NCBI GenBank assembly: GCA_965208675.1
Contig: OZ242351.1
Span: 3,424,001 to 3,488,000, forward strand
Source of the DNA: Candidatus Poribacteria bacterium
Lineage (GTDB): Bacteria > Poribacteria > WGA-4E > PCPOR2b
Direction: 5' to 3'
Length of the DNA: 64,000 nt
Position 1 is the first letter of the stretch. Every line of letters starts with the position of its first letter. Below, piece by piece: positions 1,034-50,643 of the stretch. The notes beneath the pieces were generated by a model, which saw only the letters and a list, made by a program, of their open reading frames with translations, was not told where the DNA came from and did no database searches. A program made the position numbers and the translations under genes.

Positions 1034-1824
1034 TTCATTTCCTCCGTTCGTTTCCAAAAGCGATGTTGAATTTCTGCGCTTGTCATACCAACAAAGCATC
1101 TTTTAATGTGGTCATGGGCGTGCTTGAACCATTCATCTGTGGCTGGTTTTCCAACTTTTCCAAGGCGGCCGCTCGCTTTGATTTCGAGTATCAGTACAGG
1201 GACCTCCGGTTGCTGTGTCATGGTGGCAGCGCAAATGCCAACATTAAGCTGTAGATCGGTTGCAATCTTGTAGGCGTAATTACAATTGAACCCAGCAAGT
1301 TCGAAAGCGTTGATGTCAGGATCCAAAATCGAGAAAGAGGGGATGACATTTGCGGTGTCTTGTGGCCCTGACCAGAACTCACTGGGTTCTAGGGCATTGA
1401 TATAGGTCAACTCACAAAGGTCAACAAGAAGATTTTCCACGGACCTAAATTCTGTTCGGATAAACTCGCTGAATAAGCCATAGTATTTATCAAATGTAGG
1501 CTTGATGTGCCTGTGGAAACGGGGGTAATCCTCGTCTCTGCGACGCCAATTAAACATGAAAGCATTTTTCTGTATTTGGATGAGATTGATGTCGTTTTCG
1601 GCGATAAACCAGTACCTTGGCATTGGGGAAGGTTCTTCAGCGGCGATCTCCAGTCCAACTCCCACCGGAAGTTGCTGGCGTACGATAGGGAATTCGCCCC
1701 TTATCCTTTCCCAGAAAAGACCAACATGCTCGTTACGAAAGTTTGACAACGGTGGATTAAAGTACGTAGACATCACAACTTCATTTACTGGTGGATTATC
1801 GAAGGCTATAATCTGTGACTTCAT
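1030..1824 (-). CDS. TIGR04255 family protein
   Basis: N-terminal FDNPPVNEVV..YF, GLFWERIR, PRYWF, LIQIQ..F.FNWR..YPRF and LTYIN motifs typical of TIGR04255. Confidence 0.75.
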   Translation of the reverse strand: MKSQIIAFDNPPVNEVVMSTYFNPPLSNFRNEHVGLFWERIRGEFPIVRQQLPVGVGLEIAAEEPSPMPRYWFIAENDINLIQIQKNAFMFNWRRRDEDYPRFHRHIKPTFDKYYGLFSEFIRTEFRSVENLLVDLCELTYINALEPSEFWSGPQDTANVIPSFSILDPDINAFELAGFNCNYAYKIATDLQLNVGICAATMTQQPEVPVLILEIKASGRLGKVGKPATDEWFKHAHDHIKRCFVGMTSAEIQHRFWKRTEEMK

Positions 1825-2083
1825 TAGAGTCCTTAATCCTTATACTCCTAACAATACCTATGGCGGTTCTATGTTAAATTCTCAAGATTGCGATGTGTTC
1901 TTTTTGGAGTTTTGGGAGTCATGTCCAATGGTTTAACCGAAAATCGTCAAGTGCTTCACTGATACTACCTTGCGCTGTATGATTCCACCCATTACATCAG
2001 AGTTTGTTGCTCCAATTGTCTATTTTGTCAGTAGCAATAGGGGATGTTGTAAATAAGCGATTCACCAAAACACAGTTTAGGTA

Positions 2084-2527
2084 TTAAGAGGTTGGGCGGT
2101 TTATTTTAGGGCGCAGCAGATGGATTCCCATTGCACCGTTCAACACCGGGAGCAGCGCATCGAAGAATGTCCACACCAGCGAACGGACATCTGCGCTGAC
2201 CGCGGTAAAATCTTTTGCAGCCTTGCTGATGCCGAACCAGTTCCAGAAAAAGAGTATGGCAGCGAACACGAACCCGTAGAACAGCGCGTTGGCTGCGATG
2301 AACTCTTTAACGCCCGGATTCTCGCGGGTGCGGCGCATGCGAAGGTATCCGAATTCCAAACCTACAATTATAGAGATTGCGGAGAGCGGGTCAATAATTT
2401 TCCAGATGCGGCTGTACGGATGATCGCTTGAGGACGTGTGGTAGATTGGCTCAACAATGGTGTGGATGGCGACGATGGCTCCAATTAGAATGAGAACTAC
2501 GCCAAAGAACCGCTTGAGTCCTTCCAT
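2084..2527 (-). CDS. Four-TM membrane protein (paralog A)
   Basis: Four hydrophobic segments; closely similar to 2911..3345 (AIVAIHT.EP, EFIAAN.LFYGF, LFFWNWFGIS, FTAVSADVRS). Confidence 0.75.
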   Translation of the reverse strand: MEGLKRFFGVVLILIGAIVAIHTIVEPIYHTSSSDHPYSRIWKIIDPLSAISIIVGLEFGYLRMRRTRENPGVKEFIAANALFYGFVFAAILFFWNWFGISKAAKDFTAVSADVRSLVWTFFDALLPVLNGAMGIHLLRPKINRPTS

Positions 2528-2910
2528 GTAAAATTTTTCCTCATTAACGCTCGATTCAGCAATCCTGGCTGAAGTTGGTGGGTAGGCTTTTGAGGTTCAA
2601 TCCTGAAGATTACCCCGATTTTCGGATTGCACGCTTCAATCCGTAGAGATGCGGAGGGCACAGAGACAATCTTCTCTGCGCCCTCACGTATTTGTTTCTT
2701 GGTTGGGAACGGGGATTCACATTCCCGACACGCGCTACCTTTTCTGGCGCACAACTAATCAAGGCGGCGGTTCAGGTTAGGAAGTAGTGTGGATTAATGA
2801 AAGGCTGTGCTTGTTCAGTTGTGACCATCCCAATACATACGGATTTTGCGTTCTGCAGCACAAACGTATGGTAAGCACCGGTTTTGATGACGGGTCACAA
2901 ACGGTGTTGG

Positions 2911-3345
2911 CTATTCGCTGGCGCTGGAGCGCAACAGGTGGAGGCCCATCGCACCGCTCAACAGTGGGAATAGGGCATCGAAGAAAATCCATACGATCGA
3001 CCGGACATCGGCACTGACTGCAGTAAATTCTTTCCCGACGCCGCTGATGCCGAACCAGTTCCAGAAAAAGAGTATGCCTGCGAACAGAAATCCGTAGAAT
3101 AGCGTGTTCGCCGCGATGAACTCTGGACCGCTCGCATTTTCGCCGGCACGTCTCATGCGGCAACAGCCGAATATCAACCCCAGGATAATGGCAACCGCAG
3201 TAAGCGGGTTGATTATACCCCAAGTTGAACTGTACGGGTTCGCATCGGTGGAGGTGTAATAAACCGGTTCAATAACCGTGTGGATGGCAACGATTGCCGC
3301 AATTAGGATGTGAACAACACCTACAATTTGCTTGAAGACGTTCAT
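2911..3345 (-). CDS. Four-TM membrane protein (paralog B)
   Basis: AGGAGG RBS; tandem paralog of 2084..2527. Confidence 0.8.
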   Translation of the reverse strand: MNVFKQIVGVVHILIAAIVAIHTVIEPVYYTSTDANPYSSTWGIINPLTAVAIILGLIFGCCRMRRAGENASGPEFIAANTLFYGFLFAGILFFWNWFGISGVGKEFTAVSADVRSIVWIFFDALFPLLSGAMGLHLLRSSASE

Positions 3346-3574
3346 GGCAATGTCCTCCTATTTGTTTGTCGGTTTCAGTTAAATCCTGTCCCAAGAAACG
3401 AAACACCGTATATCATATCATACACCCGCAAAAAATCAACGAAAATGTTACGGAACAATTTGCTCAACTGTCAAGTTATTCCAATGGGAGAAATGGGTAA
3501 TGAGTAATGAGTAAAGAAAAATGCGTAATGAGAAAAAGTGGTAAATCAGATTCTGACCGTTCAAAAGGGTTGCG

Positions 3575-5170: not shown

Positions 5171-5461
5171 CTACAAGGAGCGTTTATGGAGTGCTGTTTG
5201 GGTATTACTTTGGCGTGAGTAGGTTGCCCATAATGATTTTGGTTTGTCAACGGACAGTCCGACGTTACCACATCCGCCGCAAACCGTGGCTCTCAGTTTT
5301 GCTGTGCGGGCTTGCTTGAAGATTAGGGCGTCAGGATTCCCCTGCACTTCAACTTCTAGGTCCTTTGCCGAGCCTACGGCGTCGCTGTGATCCCGAATCC
5401 TCAAGTTGTGCATGATATCCTCGGAACCGCACCTAGGACACTTAATTTTCGCCATTGACAT
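5171..5461 (-). CDS. Small zinc-ribbon protein
   Basis: CPRC ... CGGC motifs; AGGAGG RBS. Confidence 0.7.
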   Translation of the reverse strand: MSMAKIKCPRCGSEDIMHNLRIRDHSDAVGSAKDLEVEVQGNPDALIFKQARTAKLRATVCGGCGNVGLSVDKPKSLWATYSRQSNTQTALHKRSL

Positions 5462-5973
5462 TTGCCTCCTTATCTATTGGGCTGGTGTGCATTATGTGAC
5501 AGACGATTCTTAGATTTCAGCGGTGTAGGTTGGGGGTTCACTGGATTTGGGAAATATCAATCAGACTCCATCTCGGAAATATAAGTGGTATGCGTGGTTT
5601 GTTTGATGGGTGTGGTTCGACGTAATCTACCCACCAAAATGGTCTTGATAAATTTCTTGATGTTTGTTATAATTAGAATCGTGGCTAGGGACAAAATTCG
5701 GCTCCATGCCGTGTGATTGTCGGGCTGCGGTTCGCTCAATCCTATATGCCTAGCTATTTAATTGCGTATCTCCCCTCCAAAGCCGCCGCATTGAGCGGTT
5801 TTTTTGTGTGTAATACACGCCATAACCTGCCTCACGTCTATCATGGATGTCCTACACCAACCGAAACGTCCGCCACAAATATCTTACATACCGTTCTTCG
5901 CCGCGTTCATAAAGCCTTTGTAGCGCCCAGACGAAATAATCTACAGCTTGTAAGTCAGCTTGTTCCAGCTGTT

Positions 5974-44812: not shown

Positions 44813-45774
44813 GTGGTGAAAATTAGGATGGAAACGCTGCGGAAAATGCCGGATTTCTGGGTGAATCGATGTTGATGGTTACCTTTCACTGTAATGCGCC
44901 GGCCCGCTTGTGGTGCGGGTTCATTGAAATCGCGGGGTAACCAAAAGGTAACCAAGAAAAAAAGATCTGTAGGTCTTTTGGGTGGCTGTAATGCTAAATT
45001 ATTAGCATTCACTATTTAGAGGCGATTCATAAAAAAGATCAGGCGGCGGATCGCCGTGTCAAGGGGAAACAGGAAGCGCAATGCGCAAAATCAGGGAAAG
45101 ATATTGCCAATGGGGTCGTATAGCGTAGATGGCGTGTGGGATAGGGAGACTAGCGCAGAGGATTTGCGGAAGCGGGTAGCGGAAAGAGGGTGGTAGGTTT
45201 TTAAGGATGGGTTTCGCAGAAAACTATCACCTTCACTGTTGGCGGAGATTATCGTTCAACCCAACCTACAAAGACTTTACAGATCGGCGTTTGCCTACTA
45301 TATATCGCGGCTGTAAGCTGCTCCCACAGATAGTGTGCCGCGATTCGGAGATTGCTGCTACAGAGAGACGAATTCTTTAAATCATAGCCTATCATTTAAT
45401 CATACAGATCACAGTTCAGACAGTTTTTGGATATGGCGGCGCGTTTGCTTAATGGGTGTCGGTTTGGAAATACGAAAAGCGTTGGGTTACGCTCTGCGCA
45501 TCGTATTTTGTACATCAATAGGTTTCCAGAGCGGTTCGTTGAATTGTAAAATTTTTGGTGAAGACCGCTCAACCCAACCTACAAGAACTGCCTACGTAAT
45601 TCAAAGATGAGGTGCTGTAATCCGACGCTTCTTCAAAAATGCGGGGAAAGACGCACCGCCTACCATGGGTGCAAGAGGTGAGATTTTATAAGAGGAGACT
45701 ATCGCCATCCCTATTCGGTCGGTTGATCGCTATTCGCTCAATTGATCGCTTTTCATCGCGGTAGAGGTTGTTAC

Positions 45775-46106
45775 CCCTGCAACGGTGGTTTCCGCCCGCG
45801 ATATCCCCCGACCGCACGTGTCAATCTTGCGAAAAACCGTACACCCCGAAGCGCCGAGGCCAACGTTATTGTTCAGGCCGTTGCGCAAAAATAGATTATT
45901 ACCGTGTATCCACCGTCACTAAAAACCCTGAAAAGTTTTTTACATTCAAGCGAATAGGTGATATATTAAATTGCGAAGAATGCGGCAAGCGAACAAAACG
46001 AACCAACGGCCGCCAGATATACTGTTCAAAACGTTGTTCAGGCCGCGCCGAAAAAGGCGCCATCTCACACATCGTCAGAAGAAGAAAGGTAAATAATGAA
46101 AATTAA
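45775..46106 (+). CDS. 5'-truncated double zinc-finger protein fragment (phage-like), inside the giant spacer
   Basis: CQSC..YCSGRC and CEEC..YCSKRC; the frame is open from the repeat edge, and the listed TTG start lies within the repeat. Confidence 0.6.
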
Positions 46107-46152
46107 GTATGAAATCAACACGTCGAGAATCAAAACGAAAGGAAGGTAGTCA

Positions 46153-46362
46153 GTGCGAAAACCAACAACAGAAGATTTATACGCGGAACTGGTGAACACA
46201 ACCACGGGCAAATTTGGCGAGGAGCTGCGCGAAACGTATGAGCCCGTCAAGCATTTAGAAGTACCCAACAAAATTAAAGAACCGCGGGCGTGGAAAGAGT
46301 GGCGTTCCCGTCCGGACGTAGCGAAATTTTTCCGACTAGTACGCCGTTTCGATCATAATTGA
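46153..46362 (+). CDS. Small hypothetical protein inside the giant spacer
   Basis: GTG start after GGAAGG; 69 aa; tight phage-like packing. Confidence 0.5.
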   Translation: MRKPTTEDLYAELVNTTTGKFGEELRETYEPVKHLEVPNKIKEPRAWKEWRSRPDVAKFFRLVRRFDHN

Positions 46363-46368
46363 AAAGCC

Positions 46369-47060
46369 TTAATCTTCCAAGGATTCAACCAGTTCGCCGA
46401 ATTCCTCGCTCCAGTCAAAAACCGCTATCGTTTCAACATTTTCGGGATCGAGTATAAAGCCGTCAGTGGGCCATGTCATGCCTATGTCTTTTGCGCGGAT
46501 GACTTGAATAACCGGCTCTTCTATTCCGACACGAGCCACCCAATTCCAGCCGCTTTCAGACGCAATATCGATAGCCTGATCTCTTCCTTCCATGAATTCG
46601 ACCGCGTTCAAGCCTGTGTAGTAAATGTTGTCGCCGTGCGTTGCAACATGGGCGTGAACCTGTTCTGTCAGTGGCGCCTCCGCGGCATCCGGATCATACA
46701 TTTTAAAATCATCAACTACGTCCACAATTGCGTTGGCGTAAGCCGCGGTGTAAATAACAGTTTCATCGCCCTGAGCTATGCTCACCTCTTCGAGTTCGCT
46801 AATGAGGTCTTCTTGATCTTCATAGGGTGATTCGCGAATCTTACGTTCAAGCCGCTTTCGTGTTTGGTCTAATTCTGCCCGCCTTGCCTGAGCTTCGGTT
46901 TTTAGTTCTCTAATTGGTTTGACTAGGTCATCCAACCCCCCTCGCCCTCTACGGCGCCTTCGACATGTTCGCGAATAGCGTCGCCCCAAATGTCCCTTAT
47001 CTCTTGCGCTTCCCCAATGGATTGCGAATATTGCTGATGCAACCTCCCCTTATCCGTCAC
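46369..47060 (-). pseudogene. 5'-truncated acidic/coiled-coil gene fragment inside the giant spacer
   Basis: One frame is open from the repeat edge (VTDKGRLHQQYSQ...EGEG) and joins ORF 46369..46989 (LDDLVKPIRELK...) through a 1-nt shift in the G6 run near 46936-46941. Confidence 0.5.
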
Positions 47061-47301
47061 GCTTTCAGTCCGCTTTTCATCGCGGTAGAGGTTGTTACTG
47101 AAATGCAGTGGTCGGTGGCTAGTGGTTAGTGCCCAGCTTTCAGTTTGCTTTTGATTGCAGTATAGCTAGTGGCCGGCGGTGGAAAACTTTCTTGCCCACG
47201 AAGTTAAATTACTCTGAATCTGTAGTGATGTAGTAGAAACAAGACTATCGCCTTCGCTATCCGTTCAGTTGATCGCTTTTCATCGCGGTAGAGGTTGTTA
47301 C

Positions 47302-47693
47302 CGACCTCGTGAAGAAAGGTGAAGATTGGACAAACACAGCAGTAGTCCACGTTTGTAAGCTCCATCTCCTATCATGGCAGATACACCCTGTTGTGTCAAT
47401 GGAAAATTGTTAATGTGCGGCGAGTTAAGTAATCGCCTGTATTGAGGGCGTTCTTGCTCAAATTTTCGCAAATCTACTGATTTCTACCGAATGCCGGCAG
47501 AACTCGTTTTTCGCCAAGCTAATCCGTCGAAAATCGGGCTAAAGTTGCCCTAAACCGCAATCCAATTCTCGTTTACGCACGAGAAAGTTCGCCGAAAATG
47601 CGTATTAATCCGTGTGGCGTCTGGATTTTTCGTTAGCATAGACCTTTCGCAAATCGCCCCGATTTTTCCGCAGAAAACCGATTTGCGAAACGC
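47302..47693 (-). promoter_or_regulatory. Putative CRISPR leader
   Basis: Non-coding ~390 bp between the cas4 stop and the first repeat; repeated TTCGCAAATC/GATTTGCGAA motifs. Confidence 0.55.
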
Positions 47694-47768
47694 TCACAAC
47701 ACATCGGCGCAGAACCGGCGAAATTCACACTCAACGCATTTTCCGCGCTGCGGCGTCGGCGTCGGAAT
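47694..47768 (-). pseudogene. cas4: cas4 3'-end remnant
   Basis: An alternative frame reads IPTPTPQRGKCVECEFRRFCADVL*, the C-terminal KCxxCxxxxxC Fe-S motif of Cas4. Confidence 0.75.
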
Positions 47769-48618
47769 CAGGCTCTTCCCACTCGACGTTAAACCTTTTG
47801 TTTATCATGGCAAACACGACTCTATCCACGACGGACTGGCGGAACTCTTCGATAAAATCCAAGACTAAGGACGGTTTGCCGGGGCGGTCGACATGCAGGA
47901 ACCCGGCAAACGGCTCGAGTCCAGCGAGTGACAGCACGCTCCAAACGTGCGAGTAGAGCATCCCGTAACCGTAATTTAGCAGTGCGTTTACATCATCGAC
48001 GGCGCCGCGATGGTTTCGGGTGGTGAAGCGTCCGGTAGGCAACAGCCGTTGGACGCATTCCCAGTAGAGTGCGCCGGCGCGTCCTTCGAGATTGAGAAGC
48101 GTCGAATGCATTGCGTCAACCGGCGTGGTAGTATCCGCGGGCGTTTCCAGAGCGCTCAACTCCGACAGAATCGCCTCAATTTTTGCAATGCGTTCCATGA
48201 GTTCAGAATATTTTTTTGGTGATTGTTTCTTGCGGTATTTTCCGAAATAACGGACGAGATTTACTTGGTTCTTCAGCTTGCCCGCAGCGAACCGTTTGGC
48301 AATCTCCAATCCGCGCACGTCGTGGTAGGCGGCGAGTTGTTCGCGTCTTGAGATTACGGTGGCGGTAAGGGATGGGCTGTTGAGTTTCGCGTACGGTTTA
48401 CCGTTGAAACTGAGGAACGAGATTTCGATGCCGCGCTCGGTACAGGCTTCAATCAGGTCTGAAGAGACACTGACGCCGCGCGAGGCGATAACAATCTGGT
48501 CGAGATCCATCAGTGCGTGTTCCTCTTTTTTCCGCTCCTTGTCTCGGAAACGGACGCTGACGCGCTCGGAGTGTTTGCCAAGATAAGTACCGTAATCGGA
48601 GATAATCAGTTCATTCAT
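47731..48618 (-). CDS. cas1: CRISPR-associated endonuclease Cas1, C-terminally truncated
   Basis: KLKNQ, LEGRAGALYW, NALLNYGYG, GLEPFAGFLH, SLVLDFIEEFR..VD; 295 aa, the last residues read out of frame into cas4. Confidence 0.92.
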   Translation of the reverse strand: MNELIISDYGTYLGKHSERVSVRFRDKERKKEEHALMDLDQIVIASRGVSVSSDLIEACTERGIEISFLSFNGKPYAKLNSPSLTATVISRREQLAAYHDVRGLEIAKRFAAGKLKNQVNLVRYFGKYRKKQSPKKYSELMERIAKIEAILSELSALETPADTTTPVDAMHSTLLNLEGRAGALYWECVQRLLPTGRFTTRNHRGAVDDVNALLNYGYGMLYSHVWSVLSLAGLEPFAGFLHVDRPGKPSLVLDFIEEFRQSVVDRVVFAMINKRFNVEWEEPDSDADAAARKMR

Positions 48619-49286: not shown

Positions 49287-49590
49287 GCGATTCGTTAAAT
49301 TGTAAATTTTTTGGTGAAGACCGCTCAACCCAACCTACAAAGACATTACAGACCGGCGTGTGCTTACTACTATATCGCGGCTGGAAGCCGCTCCCACAGG
49401 TGGTTTGCCGCGATTCGGAGATTGCTGCTACAGAATTCGGTGAAGACCGCTCTACCCAACCTACAAAAGCTAATCGGCCGGATGGTTGTATAAAATATGT
49501 TGCGGTGTATTTCGGGCGAGACGGAATTGGATTTGGGTGAAGACTATCGCACTCCTTATTTAGCCCCTTGATCACTCAACCAAACCTACG
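49287..49590. repeat. REP cluster with segments duplicated at 45253-45364 and 45531-45582
   Basis: Near-identical ~110-bp and ~52-bp blocks containing GCTCAACCCAACCTAC on both sides of the CRISPR/cas1/brnTA segment. Confidence 0.75.
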
Positions 49591-50535: not shown

Positions 50536-50643
50536 GGAAGCCTCTCCTACAGGCTAATCGAGGTTAGGAAGCCTCTCCTACAGGCTAATCGAGGCTGGGA
50601 AGCCTCTCTTACAGGCTAAATGAGGCTGGGGGCGTCTCCCACA
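50536..50643. repeat. 31-bp REP-like tandem repeat x3.5
   Basis: ggaagcctctcctacaggctaatcgaggtta units at 50536, 50567, 50598 and 50629. Confidence 0.8.

What the first reader, a model, noticed from the sequence alone, without database searches (positions are those of the whole stretch)
45775..47061. 1287-bp gene-bearing 'giant spacer' between two CRISPR repeats
Seen: 1287 bp lie exactly between repeat 47062-47098 and repeat 45747-45774, with no internal repeat, whereas the neighbouring spacer is 38 bp. The segment holds convergent, tightly packed ORFs. Both outer ORFs (a double zinc finger and an acidic coiled-coil protein) are open right up to the repeats and lack their starts, as expected for a piece cut from a foreign genome. 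Inference: (a) oversize integration by an adaptation module that lost Cas2/Cas4 length control, (b) recombination of two spacers with their target, capturing the DNA between them, or (c) an assembly chimera through two spacers. Options (a) and (b) would make the array a gene-capture site.
Basis: partly seen in the sequence, partly recalled or inferred. Interest (0 to 1): 0.85.

Follow-up and report, generated by a model that had tools for sequence, protein, structure and literature searches.

The report
Kilobase pseudo-spacer in decayed CRISPR array
A 1.3-kb piece of phage-like DNA carrying three small genes sits where a 36-base spacer should be in a broken-down CRISPR array, a rare arrangement that recurs in related bacteria and shows that arrays can trap gene-sized DNA.

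Summary
1287 bp (45775-47061) lie between a full 37-nt repeat (47062-47098) and a 28-nt repeat remnant (45747-45774). A dispersed REP-like element replaced the rest of that repeat. The locus is a wreck of a type I-B-like system. Compared with a same-genus genome, cas4, cas2, the 3' end of cas1, the whole effector module and about 40 spacers are missing.

The insert is single-copy. I found it in none of 40 relatives, nor in the phage or plasmid collections. It has no transposon ends and has the same read depth as its flanks. Its left ORF is a 5'-cut zinc-ribbon gene with phage relatives. Its right ORF looks complete.

Orthologous arrays in 5 of the 18 other genomes examined also hold 0.2-1.9 kb inserts in spacer positions, all at the trailer end. 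One is an internal fragment of a giant mobile-element methylase gene that is flush with the repeats at both ends.

One published precedent exists: the Sulfolobus islandicus "pseudo-spacer" SiL-E1.

The mechanism is unresolved. I favour recombination of array spacers with matching invader DNA, then faulty Cas1-Cas2 integration. Loss of Cas2/Cas4 is not the cause, because relatives that keep the cas2-cas4 segment show the same thing.

The parts
45696..45746 (+). REP-like dispersed element (a 35-nt module plus an extra 19-nt sub-unit) that replaces the trailer-side part of repeat R4
   Evidence: 116 copies with <=6 mismatches in the genome; 19-nt tandem unit; coverage profile of self-BLAST
45747..45774 (-). 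R4': the leader-side 28 nt of a CRISPR repeat, identical to the same part of R3 and R1'
45775..47061 (.). 1287-bp insert in a spacer position (pseudo-spacer). It is single-copy. No transposon ends were found.
45777..46103 (+). ORF A, 109 codons with no ATG or GTG start. It has two CxxC...YCSxxC zinc ribbons and is the 3' part of a longer phage-type gene. It is antisense to array transcription.
   Evidence: (phrog_1271, E 1e-9, profile positions 178-245 of 361)
46153..46362 (+). ORF B, 69 aa, GTG start, matches no family
46369..46935 (-). ORF C, 188 aa plus stop. It has a TTG start with a strong Shine-Dalgarno sequence, a helical N-terminus and an acidic C-terminus. It is an orphan and runs in the same direction as array transcription.
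47062..47098 (-). R3, a full 37-nt repeat identical to the repeat of the 43-repeat array of G002
47099..47136 (-). ordinary 38-nt spacer
47137..47173 (-). R2, a degenerate repeat (about 77% identical to R3); G002 has an orthologous stretch
47174..47273 (+). 67-nt stretch followed by a REP-like module (47241-47273/4), shared with G002
47274..47301 (-). R1': the leader-proximal repeat, of which 28 nt are kept, joined directly to the leader
47302..47730 (-). leader, 86% identical to the G002 leader. It holds a sigma-70-like site at 47399-47371, which is not above chance.
47731..48618 (-). cas1, 295 aa, C-terminally truncated. It covers positions 2-257 of the 327-position TIGR00287 model. The G002 ortholog is 366 aa.

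Best explanation
The 1287 bp are a real chromosomal 'pseudo-spacer'. Foreign, phage-like DNA occupies exactly one spacer position between two genuine repeats (R3 and R4) at the trailer end of what was once a working type I-B-like array.

Shown:
- The locus is now defunct. cas1 is truncated, and cas2, cas4, the effector genes and about 40 younger spacers are absent.
- The insert is single-copy, has no transposon ends, and has the same depth as its flanks.
- Orthologous arrays in relatives carry the same kind of insert at their trailer ends.

Inferred:
- R4 was a normal repeat that a REP-like element later hit, independently of the hit in R1.
- The DNA was captured by a process that joins foreign DNA exactly at the repeat borders. 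I think the most likely process is homologous recombination of a fragment of invader DNA with two array spacers that matched it. This would replace spacer-repeat-spacer by the whole stretch between the two protospacers. The 36-nt spacers would act like recombineering arms, and interference would supply the DNA ends.
- The event predates the decay of the locus and does not depend on the present truncated Cas1.
- The insert is now inert cargo. ORF C could still be transcribed with the array.
For: Structure and uniqueness.

Reality of the assembly.

Decay of the locus, judged against G002 (cas1 95% identical, syntenic between glmS and rsmE).

R4 is a genuine repeat and not a copy of R1'. The 28-nt cores are identical, but the adjoining REP parts differ (85% identity over the 40-nt register, plus a 19-nt indel). 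At that divergence, 28 of 28 identities would be expected with p of about 0.01 (my calculation). REP-like elements cut repeats at the same position in 5 genomes whose sequence I looked at: G000, G001, G002, G038 and G043.

Foreign origin: ORF A matches phage families and aligns with the last two ribbons and the preceding linker of longer multi-ribbon proteins, right from its first codons. I found no copy in 40 relatives, elsewhere in G000, or in the phage and plasmid collections.

Recurrence: 10 inserts of 213-1909 bp in 6 of 19 genomes examined.

Border precision in the best case, G001_1538: an 88% identical paralog aligns to the last base before the repeat and the gene continues 1.75 kb beyond. 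A 58% identical homolog aligns from residue 2. PHROG profiles place the fragment inside proteins of 1259-3431 positions.

Points for recombination over a slipping ruler: 706 ordinary spacers measure 33-45 nt and there is no continuous tail up to the inserts. The repeats flanking inserts differ from each other by 1-6 positions in G001_1538, G003, G006 and G021, as expected if they come from different units. All 10 inserts lie in the six trailer-most intervals, that is, in the oldest units.

The precedent's authors propose the same two routes (PMC3718332; passages read).
Against: - No source element was found for the G000 insert, so flushness at its right end and any PAM cannot be tested.
- None of 706 spacers from 19 genomes matches any insert, or the G001 element, over 20 nt or more. 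No sister strain shows the insert ends as ordinary spacers.
- Some relatives' inserts look self-derived. This fits spacer-guided recombination badly. G019_513 is 96% identical to the 3' end of the regulator gene of its own cas locus and is not flush (2-6 nt and about 50 nt remain). G006_1909 is a complete host-type LRR gene, 80% identical to a paralog.
- Trailer-end clustering could equally reflect trailer-specific rearrangement, or selection against inserts in the middle of an array.
- R4 lacks its other half.
- The evidence that ORF A is cut at the border rests on a short linker motif.
Confidence: 0.4

Rival explanations
1. Faulty adaptation. Cas1-Cas2(-Cas4) of the then-intact system integrated an unprocessed, kilobase-long DNA fragment at a repeat and duplicated that repeat, in the way a casposase inserts long DNA.
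For: Junctions exactly at the repeat borders are what integrase chemistry gives. This is seen at both ends of G001_1538. In G000 the 28 nt of R4' are identical to R3. The mixed origin of the inserts (mobile-element, host paralog, own cas locus) fits indiscriminate capture. The authors of PMC3718332 list this route.
Against: Ordinary spacers are tightly sized at 33-45 nt (n = 706), with no intermediate tail. All 10 inserts lie at the trailer end, not spread along the arrays as acquisition-time errors should be. The repeats flanking several inserts differ by 1-6 positions, although a duplication should make them alike. In G000 the insert lies distal to units shared with G002. The present Cas1 is truncated and has no Cas2.
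Confidence: 0.2
2. The insert is unrelated to spacer biology. Foreign DNA landed in an old spacer or in the junk-rich trailer flank by illegitimate recombination or a decayed mobile element, and R4' is merely a remnant of an older array. The spacer position is incidental.
For: Any DNA inserted within a spacer looks flush with the repeats, because spacer remnants cannot be recognised. The trailer flank is variable and full of REP-like repeats. In G002 it holds a toxin-antitoxin gene and an rve integrase fragment instead. Trailer ends in relatives carry older repeat variants. G019_513 is not flush.
Against: G001_1538 is flush at both ends, with 0 nt and at most 4 nt left over. ORF A's homology starts at its first codons. 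The insert has no inverted ends and no recombinase. Ten such inserts in six arrays are many for random hits into roughly 36-nt targets.
Confidence: 0.25
3. The insert is the remnant of a temperate phage that used the CRISPR repeat as its attachment site and later lost most of its genome.
For: Phage integration into CRISPR repeats is documented for Streptococcus pyogenes phage PhiAP1.1 (bioRxiv 10.1101/2020.10.09.333658; abstract and outline read). ORF A is phage-like.
Against: There is no integrase and no att-like arm. A gene is cut at the left border. A remnant flush on both sides needs the internal deletion to spare both ends. This route cannot explain G001_1538, which is an internal fragment of a single gene.
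Confidence: 0.07
4. Assembly chimera, or an episomal circle wrongly threaded through the 34-nt exact repeat.
For: The 34-nt exact direct repeat (45742-45775 = 47269-47302) breaks short-read unitigs, so contigs alone cannot prove the left join.
Against: The genome is a single 4.89-Mb contig. Insert and flanks have equal depth in two runs, one unitig covers 45746-47298 with 0 differences, and no contig joins 45775 directly to 47303. The same architecture occurs in five other assemblies.
Confidence: 0.03

Closest known systems
Pseudo-spacer SiL-E1 of Sulfolobus islandicus LAL14/1 (Open Biol 2013, PMC3718332; passages of sections 4.6, 4.11 and 5 read)
   Same: A kilobase, multi-ORF piece of mobile-element DNA lies between two repeats of an array, where a spacer should be. 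It is absent from related strains. There is no sign of transposition. The same two routes were proposed: faulty processing by Cas proteins, or recombination with matching spacers.
   Different: SiL-E1 is archaeal and about 2 kb with 5 ORFs. It is 82% identical to and collinear with known pING1-like plasmids up to both repeats, is flanked by two perfect repeats, and is followed by further units. Here the host is a planctomycete-like bacterium, no source is known, one flanking repeat is truncated by a REP-like element, the locus is decayed, and the feature recurs in 6 of 19 related genomes.
Spacer-protospacer recombination between phages and CRISPR loci (staphylococci; Varble et al. 2019, recalled from memory, not retrieved)
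   Same: About 30-36 nt of spacer homology is enough to recombine invader DNA with the array.
   Different: As I recall it, a single crossover there makes phage-CRISPR hybrids that are then transduced. Here a double exchange would have to fix the intervening DNA in the array. This was not tested.
Prophage integration into CRISPR repeats (PhiAP1.1, S. pyogenes; bioRxiv 10.1101/2020.10.09.333658, abstract read)
   Same: Phage DNA ends up bounded by array repeats.
   Different: That case is site-specific, involves a whole prophage with an integrase, and is reversible. Here there is a 1.3-kb fragment without a recombinase and with a cut gene at one border.
IS or MITE insertion in CRISPR arrays
   Same: It interrupts the regular spacing. 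The REP-like element at R1 and R4 of this locus is such a case.
   Different: The 1287-bp insert has no inverted ends, no target duplication other than the repeats, no transposase and no second copy.
Casposons (Cas1-solo transposons)
   Same: A Cas1 lies beside long DNA flanked by direct repeats.
   Different: This cas1 is the ortholog (95% identical) of an adaptation cas1 that sits next to cas2 and cas4 and a 43-repeat array in G002. There is no polymerase B and there are no terminal inverted repeats.

Membership tests
Canonical CRISPR spacer | Lies between two direct repeats of one array, with its borders at the repeat ends | tested here: met
   R3 is a full repeat. R4' keeps the 28 nt that adjoin the insert. 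The borders fall at the ends of the 37-nt repeat as defined by 19 related arrays.
Canonical CRISPR spacer | Length set by the system's ruler | tested here: not met
   1287 nt, against 33-45 nt in 706 spacers of this repeat family and of G000's other array.
Canonical CRISPR spacer | Added at the leader end by Cas1-Cas2 | not testable with these tools
   The insert is the trailer-most interval. The local Cas1 is truncated and Cas2 is absent.
Pseudo-spacer (SiL-E1 type) | Kilobase, ORF-bearing insert in a spacer position | tested here: met
   1287 bp with three ORFs.
Pseudo-spacer (SiL-E1 type) | Flanked by identical repeats of the array | tested here: inconclusive
   The 28 retained nt of R4' are identical to R3. 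The remaining 9 nt are replaced by a REP-like element and the other half was not found.
Pseudo-spacer (SiL-E1 type) | Collinear with a known mobile element up to both repeat borders | tested here: inconclusive
   No source was found. ORF A's homology to phage-type proteins starts at its first codons. This feature is met for the relative's insert G001_1538.
Pseudo-spacer (SiL-E1 type) | Absent from related strains | tested here: met
   0 of 40 relatives' genomes hold it. G002 has other DNA at this place.
Insertion sequence / transposon | Terminal inverted repeats, target-site duplication, transposase, several copies | tested here: not met
   None of 17 inverted pairs has its arms at the insert ends. 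No transposase family was found. It is single-copy.
Casposon | Casposase-type Cas1 with family B polymerase, TIRs and a target duplication | tested here: not met
   The Cas1 is an adaptation-type ortholog. There are no TIRs and no polymerase among the ORFs.
Type I-B-like CRISPR-Cas locus (the surrounding system) | cas8b, cas7, cas5, cas3 plus cas4, cas1, cas2 and an array | tested here: not met
   G002 has them: Cas5b 102.7 bits, Cas7/Cst2 165.9 bits, Cas8b1 domain 35.1 bits, Cas3, Cas4, Cas2 and Cas1. G000 keeps only a truncated cas1 and 3-4 repeats, so it is a remnant and not a system.

The most novel reading that the evidence does not exclude
In this planctomycete type I-B lineage, CRISPR arrays repeatedly take up gene-sized DNA at exact repeat borders: 10 inserts in 6 of 19 genomes, including whole genes with their ribosome-binding sites. 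The arrays would then act as a cassette-capture platform. Captured genes mostly point the same way as the pre-crRNA and are bracketed by Cas6 sites, so they could be expressed and cut out as separate messages, much like integron cassettes.
Probability: 0.12. Interest if true: 0.85.

Novelty: new member of a known kind. Interest (0 to 1): 0.55.

Why it matters
Kilobase pseudo-spacers have, as far as my six literature searches show, been described once, in one archaeal strain, with no mechanism.

This report gives a bacterial case and a lineage in which the feature recurs. One example is flush with the repeats at both ends. That turns a curiosity into a question that comparison and experiment can answer: does spacer-guided recombination or a misfiring integrase put gene-sized DNA into arrays?

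Either answer bears on three things: how arrays evolve, how immunity loci exchange DNA with their targets, and how array-finding software, which usually splits arrays at such gaps, miscounts them.

The particular G000 copy sits in a dead locus and probably does nothing now.

Tried and rejected
Source hunt for the insert:
- DNA against 40 relatives, the phage collection and the plasmid collection: nothing.
- ORF C against 5.8 billion proteins: only itself, among 122 candidates.
- ORF C and ORF A against viral contigs: one weak locus each, 33% over 61 residues and 31% over 96 residues. I did not follow these up.
- ORF C in the ESM Atlas: no usable hit.
- The AlphaFold model of ORF C has mean pLDDT 47.5, too poor for a fold search, so none was run.

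Other negative results:
- Rfam found nothing in the window.
- Pfam gave only sub-threshold hits on the three ORFs.
- The promoter and terminator scan was at chance level: 4 found against 2.6 expected, and 2 against 2.9.
- An 11-nt inverted match of the repeat inside the insert (46946-46956) is at chance level by my estimate (about 0.5 expected).
- Spacer matches: 706 spacers against all inserts and a 40-kb G001 element gave none of 20 nt or more. The first run printed too much and was cut.
- G021_732, G003_532, G001_631 and G019_1672 have no second copy in 41 genomes.

Rows set aside from the count of inserts:
- G043, 1109 bp: both flanks are REP-truncated, and there is no open frame over 105 codons.
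- G041, 298 bp: REP ends.
- G044, 8777 bp, and G029, 9198 and 652 bp: the flanking 'repeats' are regex matches that are not convincing repeats, or belong to distant arrays.
- Gaps of 81-203 bp: REP insertions or missed degenerate repeats.
- G016 and G141 (short contigs) were not fetched.

Limits:
- My repeat detection is a regex with up to 4 mismatches, so degenerate repeats inside large gaps could be missed. This is excluded where one frame runs through the gap, as in G001_1538 and G006_1909.
- The orientation bias of insert ORFs (the longest clear ORF is co-directional with the array in 5 of 6 inserts) is not significant.
- Supplementary files of papers were closed. Figure 6 and any supplement of PMC3718332 were not seen.
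Full report
WHAT IS THERE. Window 45775-47061 (1287 bp) lies between a full 37-nt repeat, R3 (47062-47098), and a 28-nt repeat remnant, R4' (45747-45774). The 28-nt core common to both occurs three times in the 4.89-Mb single-contig genome, all at this locus. The third copy (47274-47301, R1') is joined directly to the leader. Between R3 and R1' lie a 38-nt spacer, a degenerate repeat (47137-47173), 67 nt of other sequence, and a 35-nt dispersed module. No repeat copy lies inside the insert, and the insert has no second copy in the genome. The array is transcribed on the minus strand, from the leader next to cas1 (47731-48618, minus strand).

THE TRUNCATED REPEATS. The sequence that replaces the far part of both R4 and R1 is a REP-like module with 116 copies (<=6 mismatches) in the genome. 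It is joined to many different neighbours. The same kind of element cuts repeats of this family at the same position in G002, G001, G038 and G043. A REP-associated tyrosine transposase gene sits inside the cas locus of G002, and G000 has two such genes over the family cut-off. The REP parts next to R4' and R1' differ: 85% identity over the 40-nt register, plus a 19-nt extra unit. The 28-nt cores, by contrast, are identical. I therefore read them as two independent hits into two genuine repeats, not as a duplication. The missing half of R4 was not found.

THE LOCUS IS A WRECK. The cas1 has orthologs of 77-95% identity in 19 of 40 relatives (two of them are split) and in 20 of 158 other genomes of the order at E<=1e-100. 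In G002 (same genus, cas1 95% identical, syntenic from glmS to rsmE) the order of genes is as follows:
- glmS
- a toxin-antitoxin gene and an rve integrase fragment
- the terminal repeat, then a 'spacer', then the same degenerate-repeat/REP/28-nt structure as in G000
- 40 more repeat-spacer units
- the leader
- cas4, cas2, and cas1 (366 aa)
- a toxin-antitoxin pair
- cas3, cas5b, cas7 (Cst2/DevR) and cas8b1
- a RAYT gene
- rsmE

G000 lacks three things. It lacks a 1271-bp block holding cas4, cas2 and the 3' end of cas1; its Cas1 covers model positions 2-257 of 327. It lacks the effector module; only 1.1 kb with a BrnA-type gene lies between cas1 and rsmE. It lacks the 40 younger units. A separate, complete type I-B-like system with a 47-repeat array of a different repeat lies at 95-106 kb of the genome.

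IS THE INSERT REAL? Two runs that hold the stretch give one 1553-nt unitig over 45746-47298 with no differences. Depth over the insert equals that of the flanks, and no contig joins the outer flanks directly. These runs are probably the source sample. A 34-nt exact repeat stops unitigs at both ends, so final proof needs raw long reads, which I could not lay.

WHAT THE INSERT CARRIES. ORF A (45777-46103, +) has two CxxC...YCSxxC zinc ribbons and no ATG or GTG start, and it is open into the repeat. It matches phage families: phrog_1271 at E 1e-9, positions 178-245 of a 361-position profile. It has 145 remote relatives at E<=1e-3, the best at 2e-13 and 36% identity. In an alignment with 9 of these 145, chosen because their matches start near the query's N-terminus or score best, ORF A corresponds to the last two ribbons. 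Its first residues align with the linker after an earlier ribbon. This suggests a gene cut at the border.

ORF B (69 aa) has no relatives. ORF C (46369-46935, minus strand) has an in-frame stop at 47050-47052, a TTG start with a strong ribosome-binding site, and 188 residues. It is an orphan, and its model is poor. The GC content of the insert is 48.6%, against 49.2% for the genome. There are no inverted ends. There is no match in 40 relatives, or in the phage or plasmid collections.

THE SAME THING IN RELATIVES. I examined the arrays next to the orthologous cas1 in 19 of the 21 genomes that have it, G000 included. Inserts of 200 bp or more between recognisable repeats, not explained by REP elements, occur in 6 of the 19:
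- G000: 1287 bp
- G001: 1538 and 631 bp
- G003: 532 bp
- G006: 1909, 233 and 213 bp
- G019: 1672 and 513 bp
- G021: 732 bp

The rows I set aside are listed under Tried and rejected. The six inserts from G000, G001, G003 and G019 share no sequence with each other; I did not compare the G006 and G021 inserts with the others. All ten lie within the six trailer-most intervals, in arrays of 22 to about 130 repeats apart from G000's remnant of 3-4 repeats. Ordinary spacers measure 33-45 nt (n = 706), with no tail towards the inserts.

THE BEST CASE IS G001_1538. It is a single 512-codon frame open at both ends. It matches giant phage methyltransferase families in the middle of their profiles. An 88% identical paralog elsewhere in G001 aligns up to the last base before the repeat, and the gene runs on for 1.75 kb. 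A G003 homolog aligns from residue 2. No room is left for remnants of an older spacer.

OTHER INSERTS DIFFER. G006_1909 is a complete secreted LRR gene with its ribosome-binding site, 80% identical to a paralog in the same genome. G019_1672 holds two complete lipoprotein-like genes. G019_513 is a 96% identical copy of the 3' end of the WYL/WCX regulator gene of its own cas locus, and it is not flush.

HOW IT PROBABLY AROSE. Three facts point to a process that joins DNA at the repeat borders: the flush borders of G001_1538, the cut gene at the G000 border, and the lack of transposon features. Two such processes are known in principle, and the authors of the only precedent I found named both. 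That precedent is the ~2-kb, five-ORF pseudo-spacer SiL-E1 of Sulfolobus islandicus LAL14/1, which is collinear with pING1-like plasmids up to both repeats (PMC3718332; passages read).

I favour recombination of invader DNA with two matching spacers, for four reasons. The size gap between ordinary spacers and inserts is discrete. The flanking repeats often differ from each other. The inserts sit in the oldest units. And 36-nt arms suffice for annealing-protein-driven exchange; this last point is established knowledge of recombineering and was not tested here.

Faulty Cas1-Cas2 integration remains a serious rival, and it fits the self-derived inserts better. An insertion unrelated to spacer biology cannot be excluded for G000 itself, because no source was found.

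G001 and G003 hold inserts and keep the roughly 1.1-kb cas2-cas4 segment. The G000 insert also lies distal to units shared with G002.

KNOWN OR NEW. This is a new member of a known but barely documented kind. Six literature searches found the Sulfolobus case and phage integration into repeats. They found no bacterial kilobase pseudo-spacer and no lineage in which the feature recurs.

VERDICT. The mechanism is unresolved, with probabilities of 0.4 for spacer-guided recombination, 0.2 for faulty integration and 0.25 for an unrelated insertion. The interest is moderate to high because of the recurrence, although the G000 copy itself lies in a dead locus.

Noticed in passing
window 45696-45746, 47241-47274; also 45221-45260, 49541-49580; L022 3431-3465; L024 (cas1 placed at the right) near 5470 and 5870: A 35-nt REP-like module has 116 copies in G000. 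It cuts CRISPR repeats of this family at one and the same position (just before TTTTCATCG) in at least 5 genomes of 2 families. In G001 a duplicated TTTTCATCG appears on both sides. A RAYT gene sits inside the G002 cas locus. This looks like a REP/REPIN element with a target preference for the loop of the CRISPR repeat hairpin.
   Followed up: partly
genome G000:C1 845709, 1533615, 3033562, 3042430, 3759957 (outside the window; L004-L008): There are five further loci with single or paired repeats of the same family (5-9 mismatches, with compensatory changes in the stem). Two of them are repeat-spacer-repeat mini-arrays. None of the 10 largest neighbouring ORFs scanned around four of these loci is a cas gene. 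They are either remnants of lost arrays or dispersed solo repeats.
   Followed up: partly
L060 4526-4560 (G019) and L061 5539-5575 (G002): A degenerate solitary repeat is conserved inside the cas loci of G019 and G002; in G019 it lies next to the 3' end of the WYL/WCX regulator gene. It may be a regulatory repeat-like element of the kind that guides Cascade to a promoter.
   Followed up: no
genome G000:C1 95098-105960 (L009): A second, complete type I-B-like system (cas8-like, cas7, cas5, cas3, cas4, cas1) has a 47-repeat array of a different 30-nt repeat. Three spacers occur twice in it (at 102973/103106, 105372/105640 and 105506/105707).
   Followed up: no
window 47731-48618 and its orthologs: This Cas1 is 80-87% identical across three families of the order (21 of 159 genomes at E<=1e-100). 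That is unusually conserved for a cas gene and suggests recent horizontal spread of the whole module.
   Followed up: no
L024 (cas1 placed at the right) 5295-5906: The G001 array holds a tandem duplication of about 400 bp that includes a REP-split repeat and two spacers.
   Followed up: no
inserts in L024, L026, L043 and window 46369-46935: In 5 of the 6 inserts with a clear coding strand, the longest ORF points the same way as array transcription. ORF A and ORF B of G000 are the exceptions. This is not significant, but it is the pattern expected if expression from the leader matters.
   Followed up: partly
window 50536-50630: Three tandem copies of a 31-nt unit (92% matches) lie between rsmE and rimP. 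Related single copies occur at 49383 and 50628.
   Followed up: no
window 47062-47301, as seen in run X2: A run labelled as a sponge metagenome holds contigs that join this repeat to ordinary 31-36-nt spacers. Organisms with the same repeat family and normal arrays therefore occur there.
   Followed up: no
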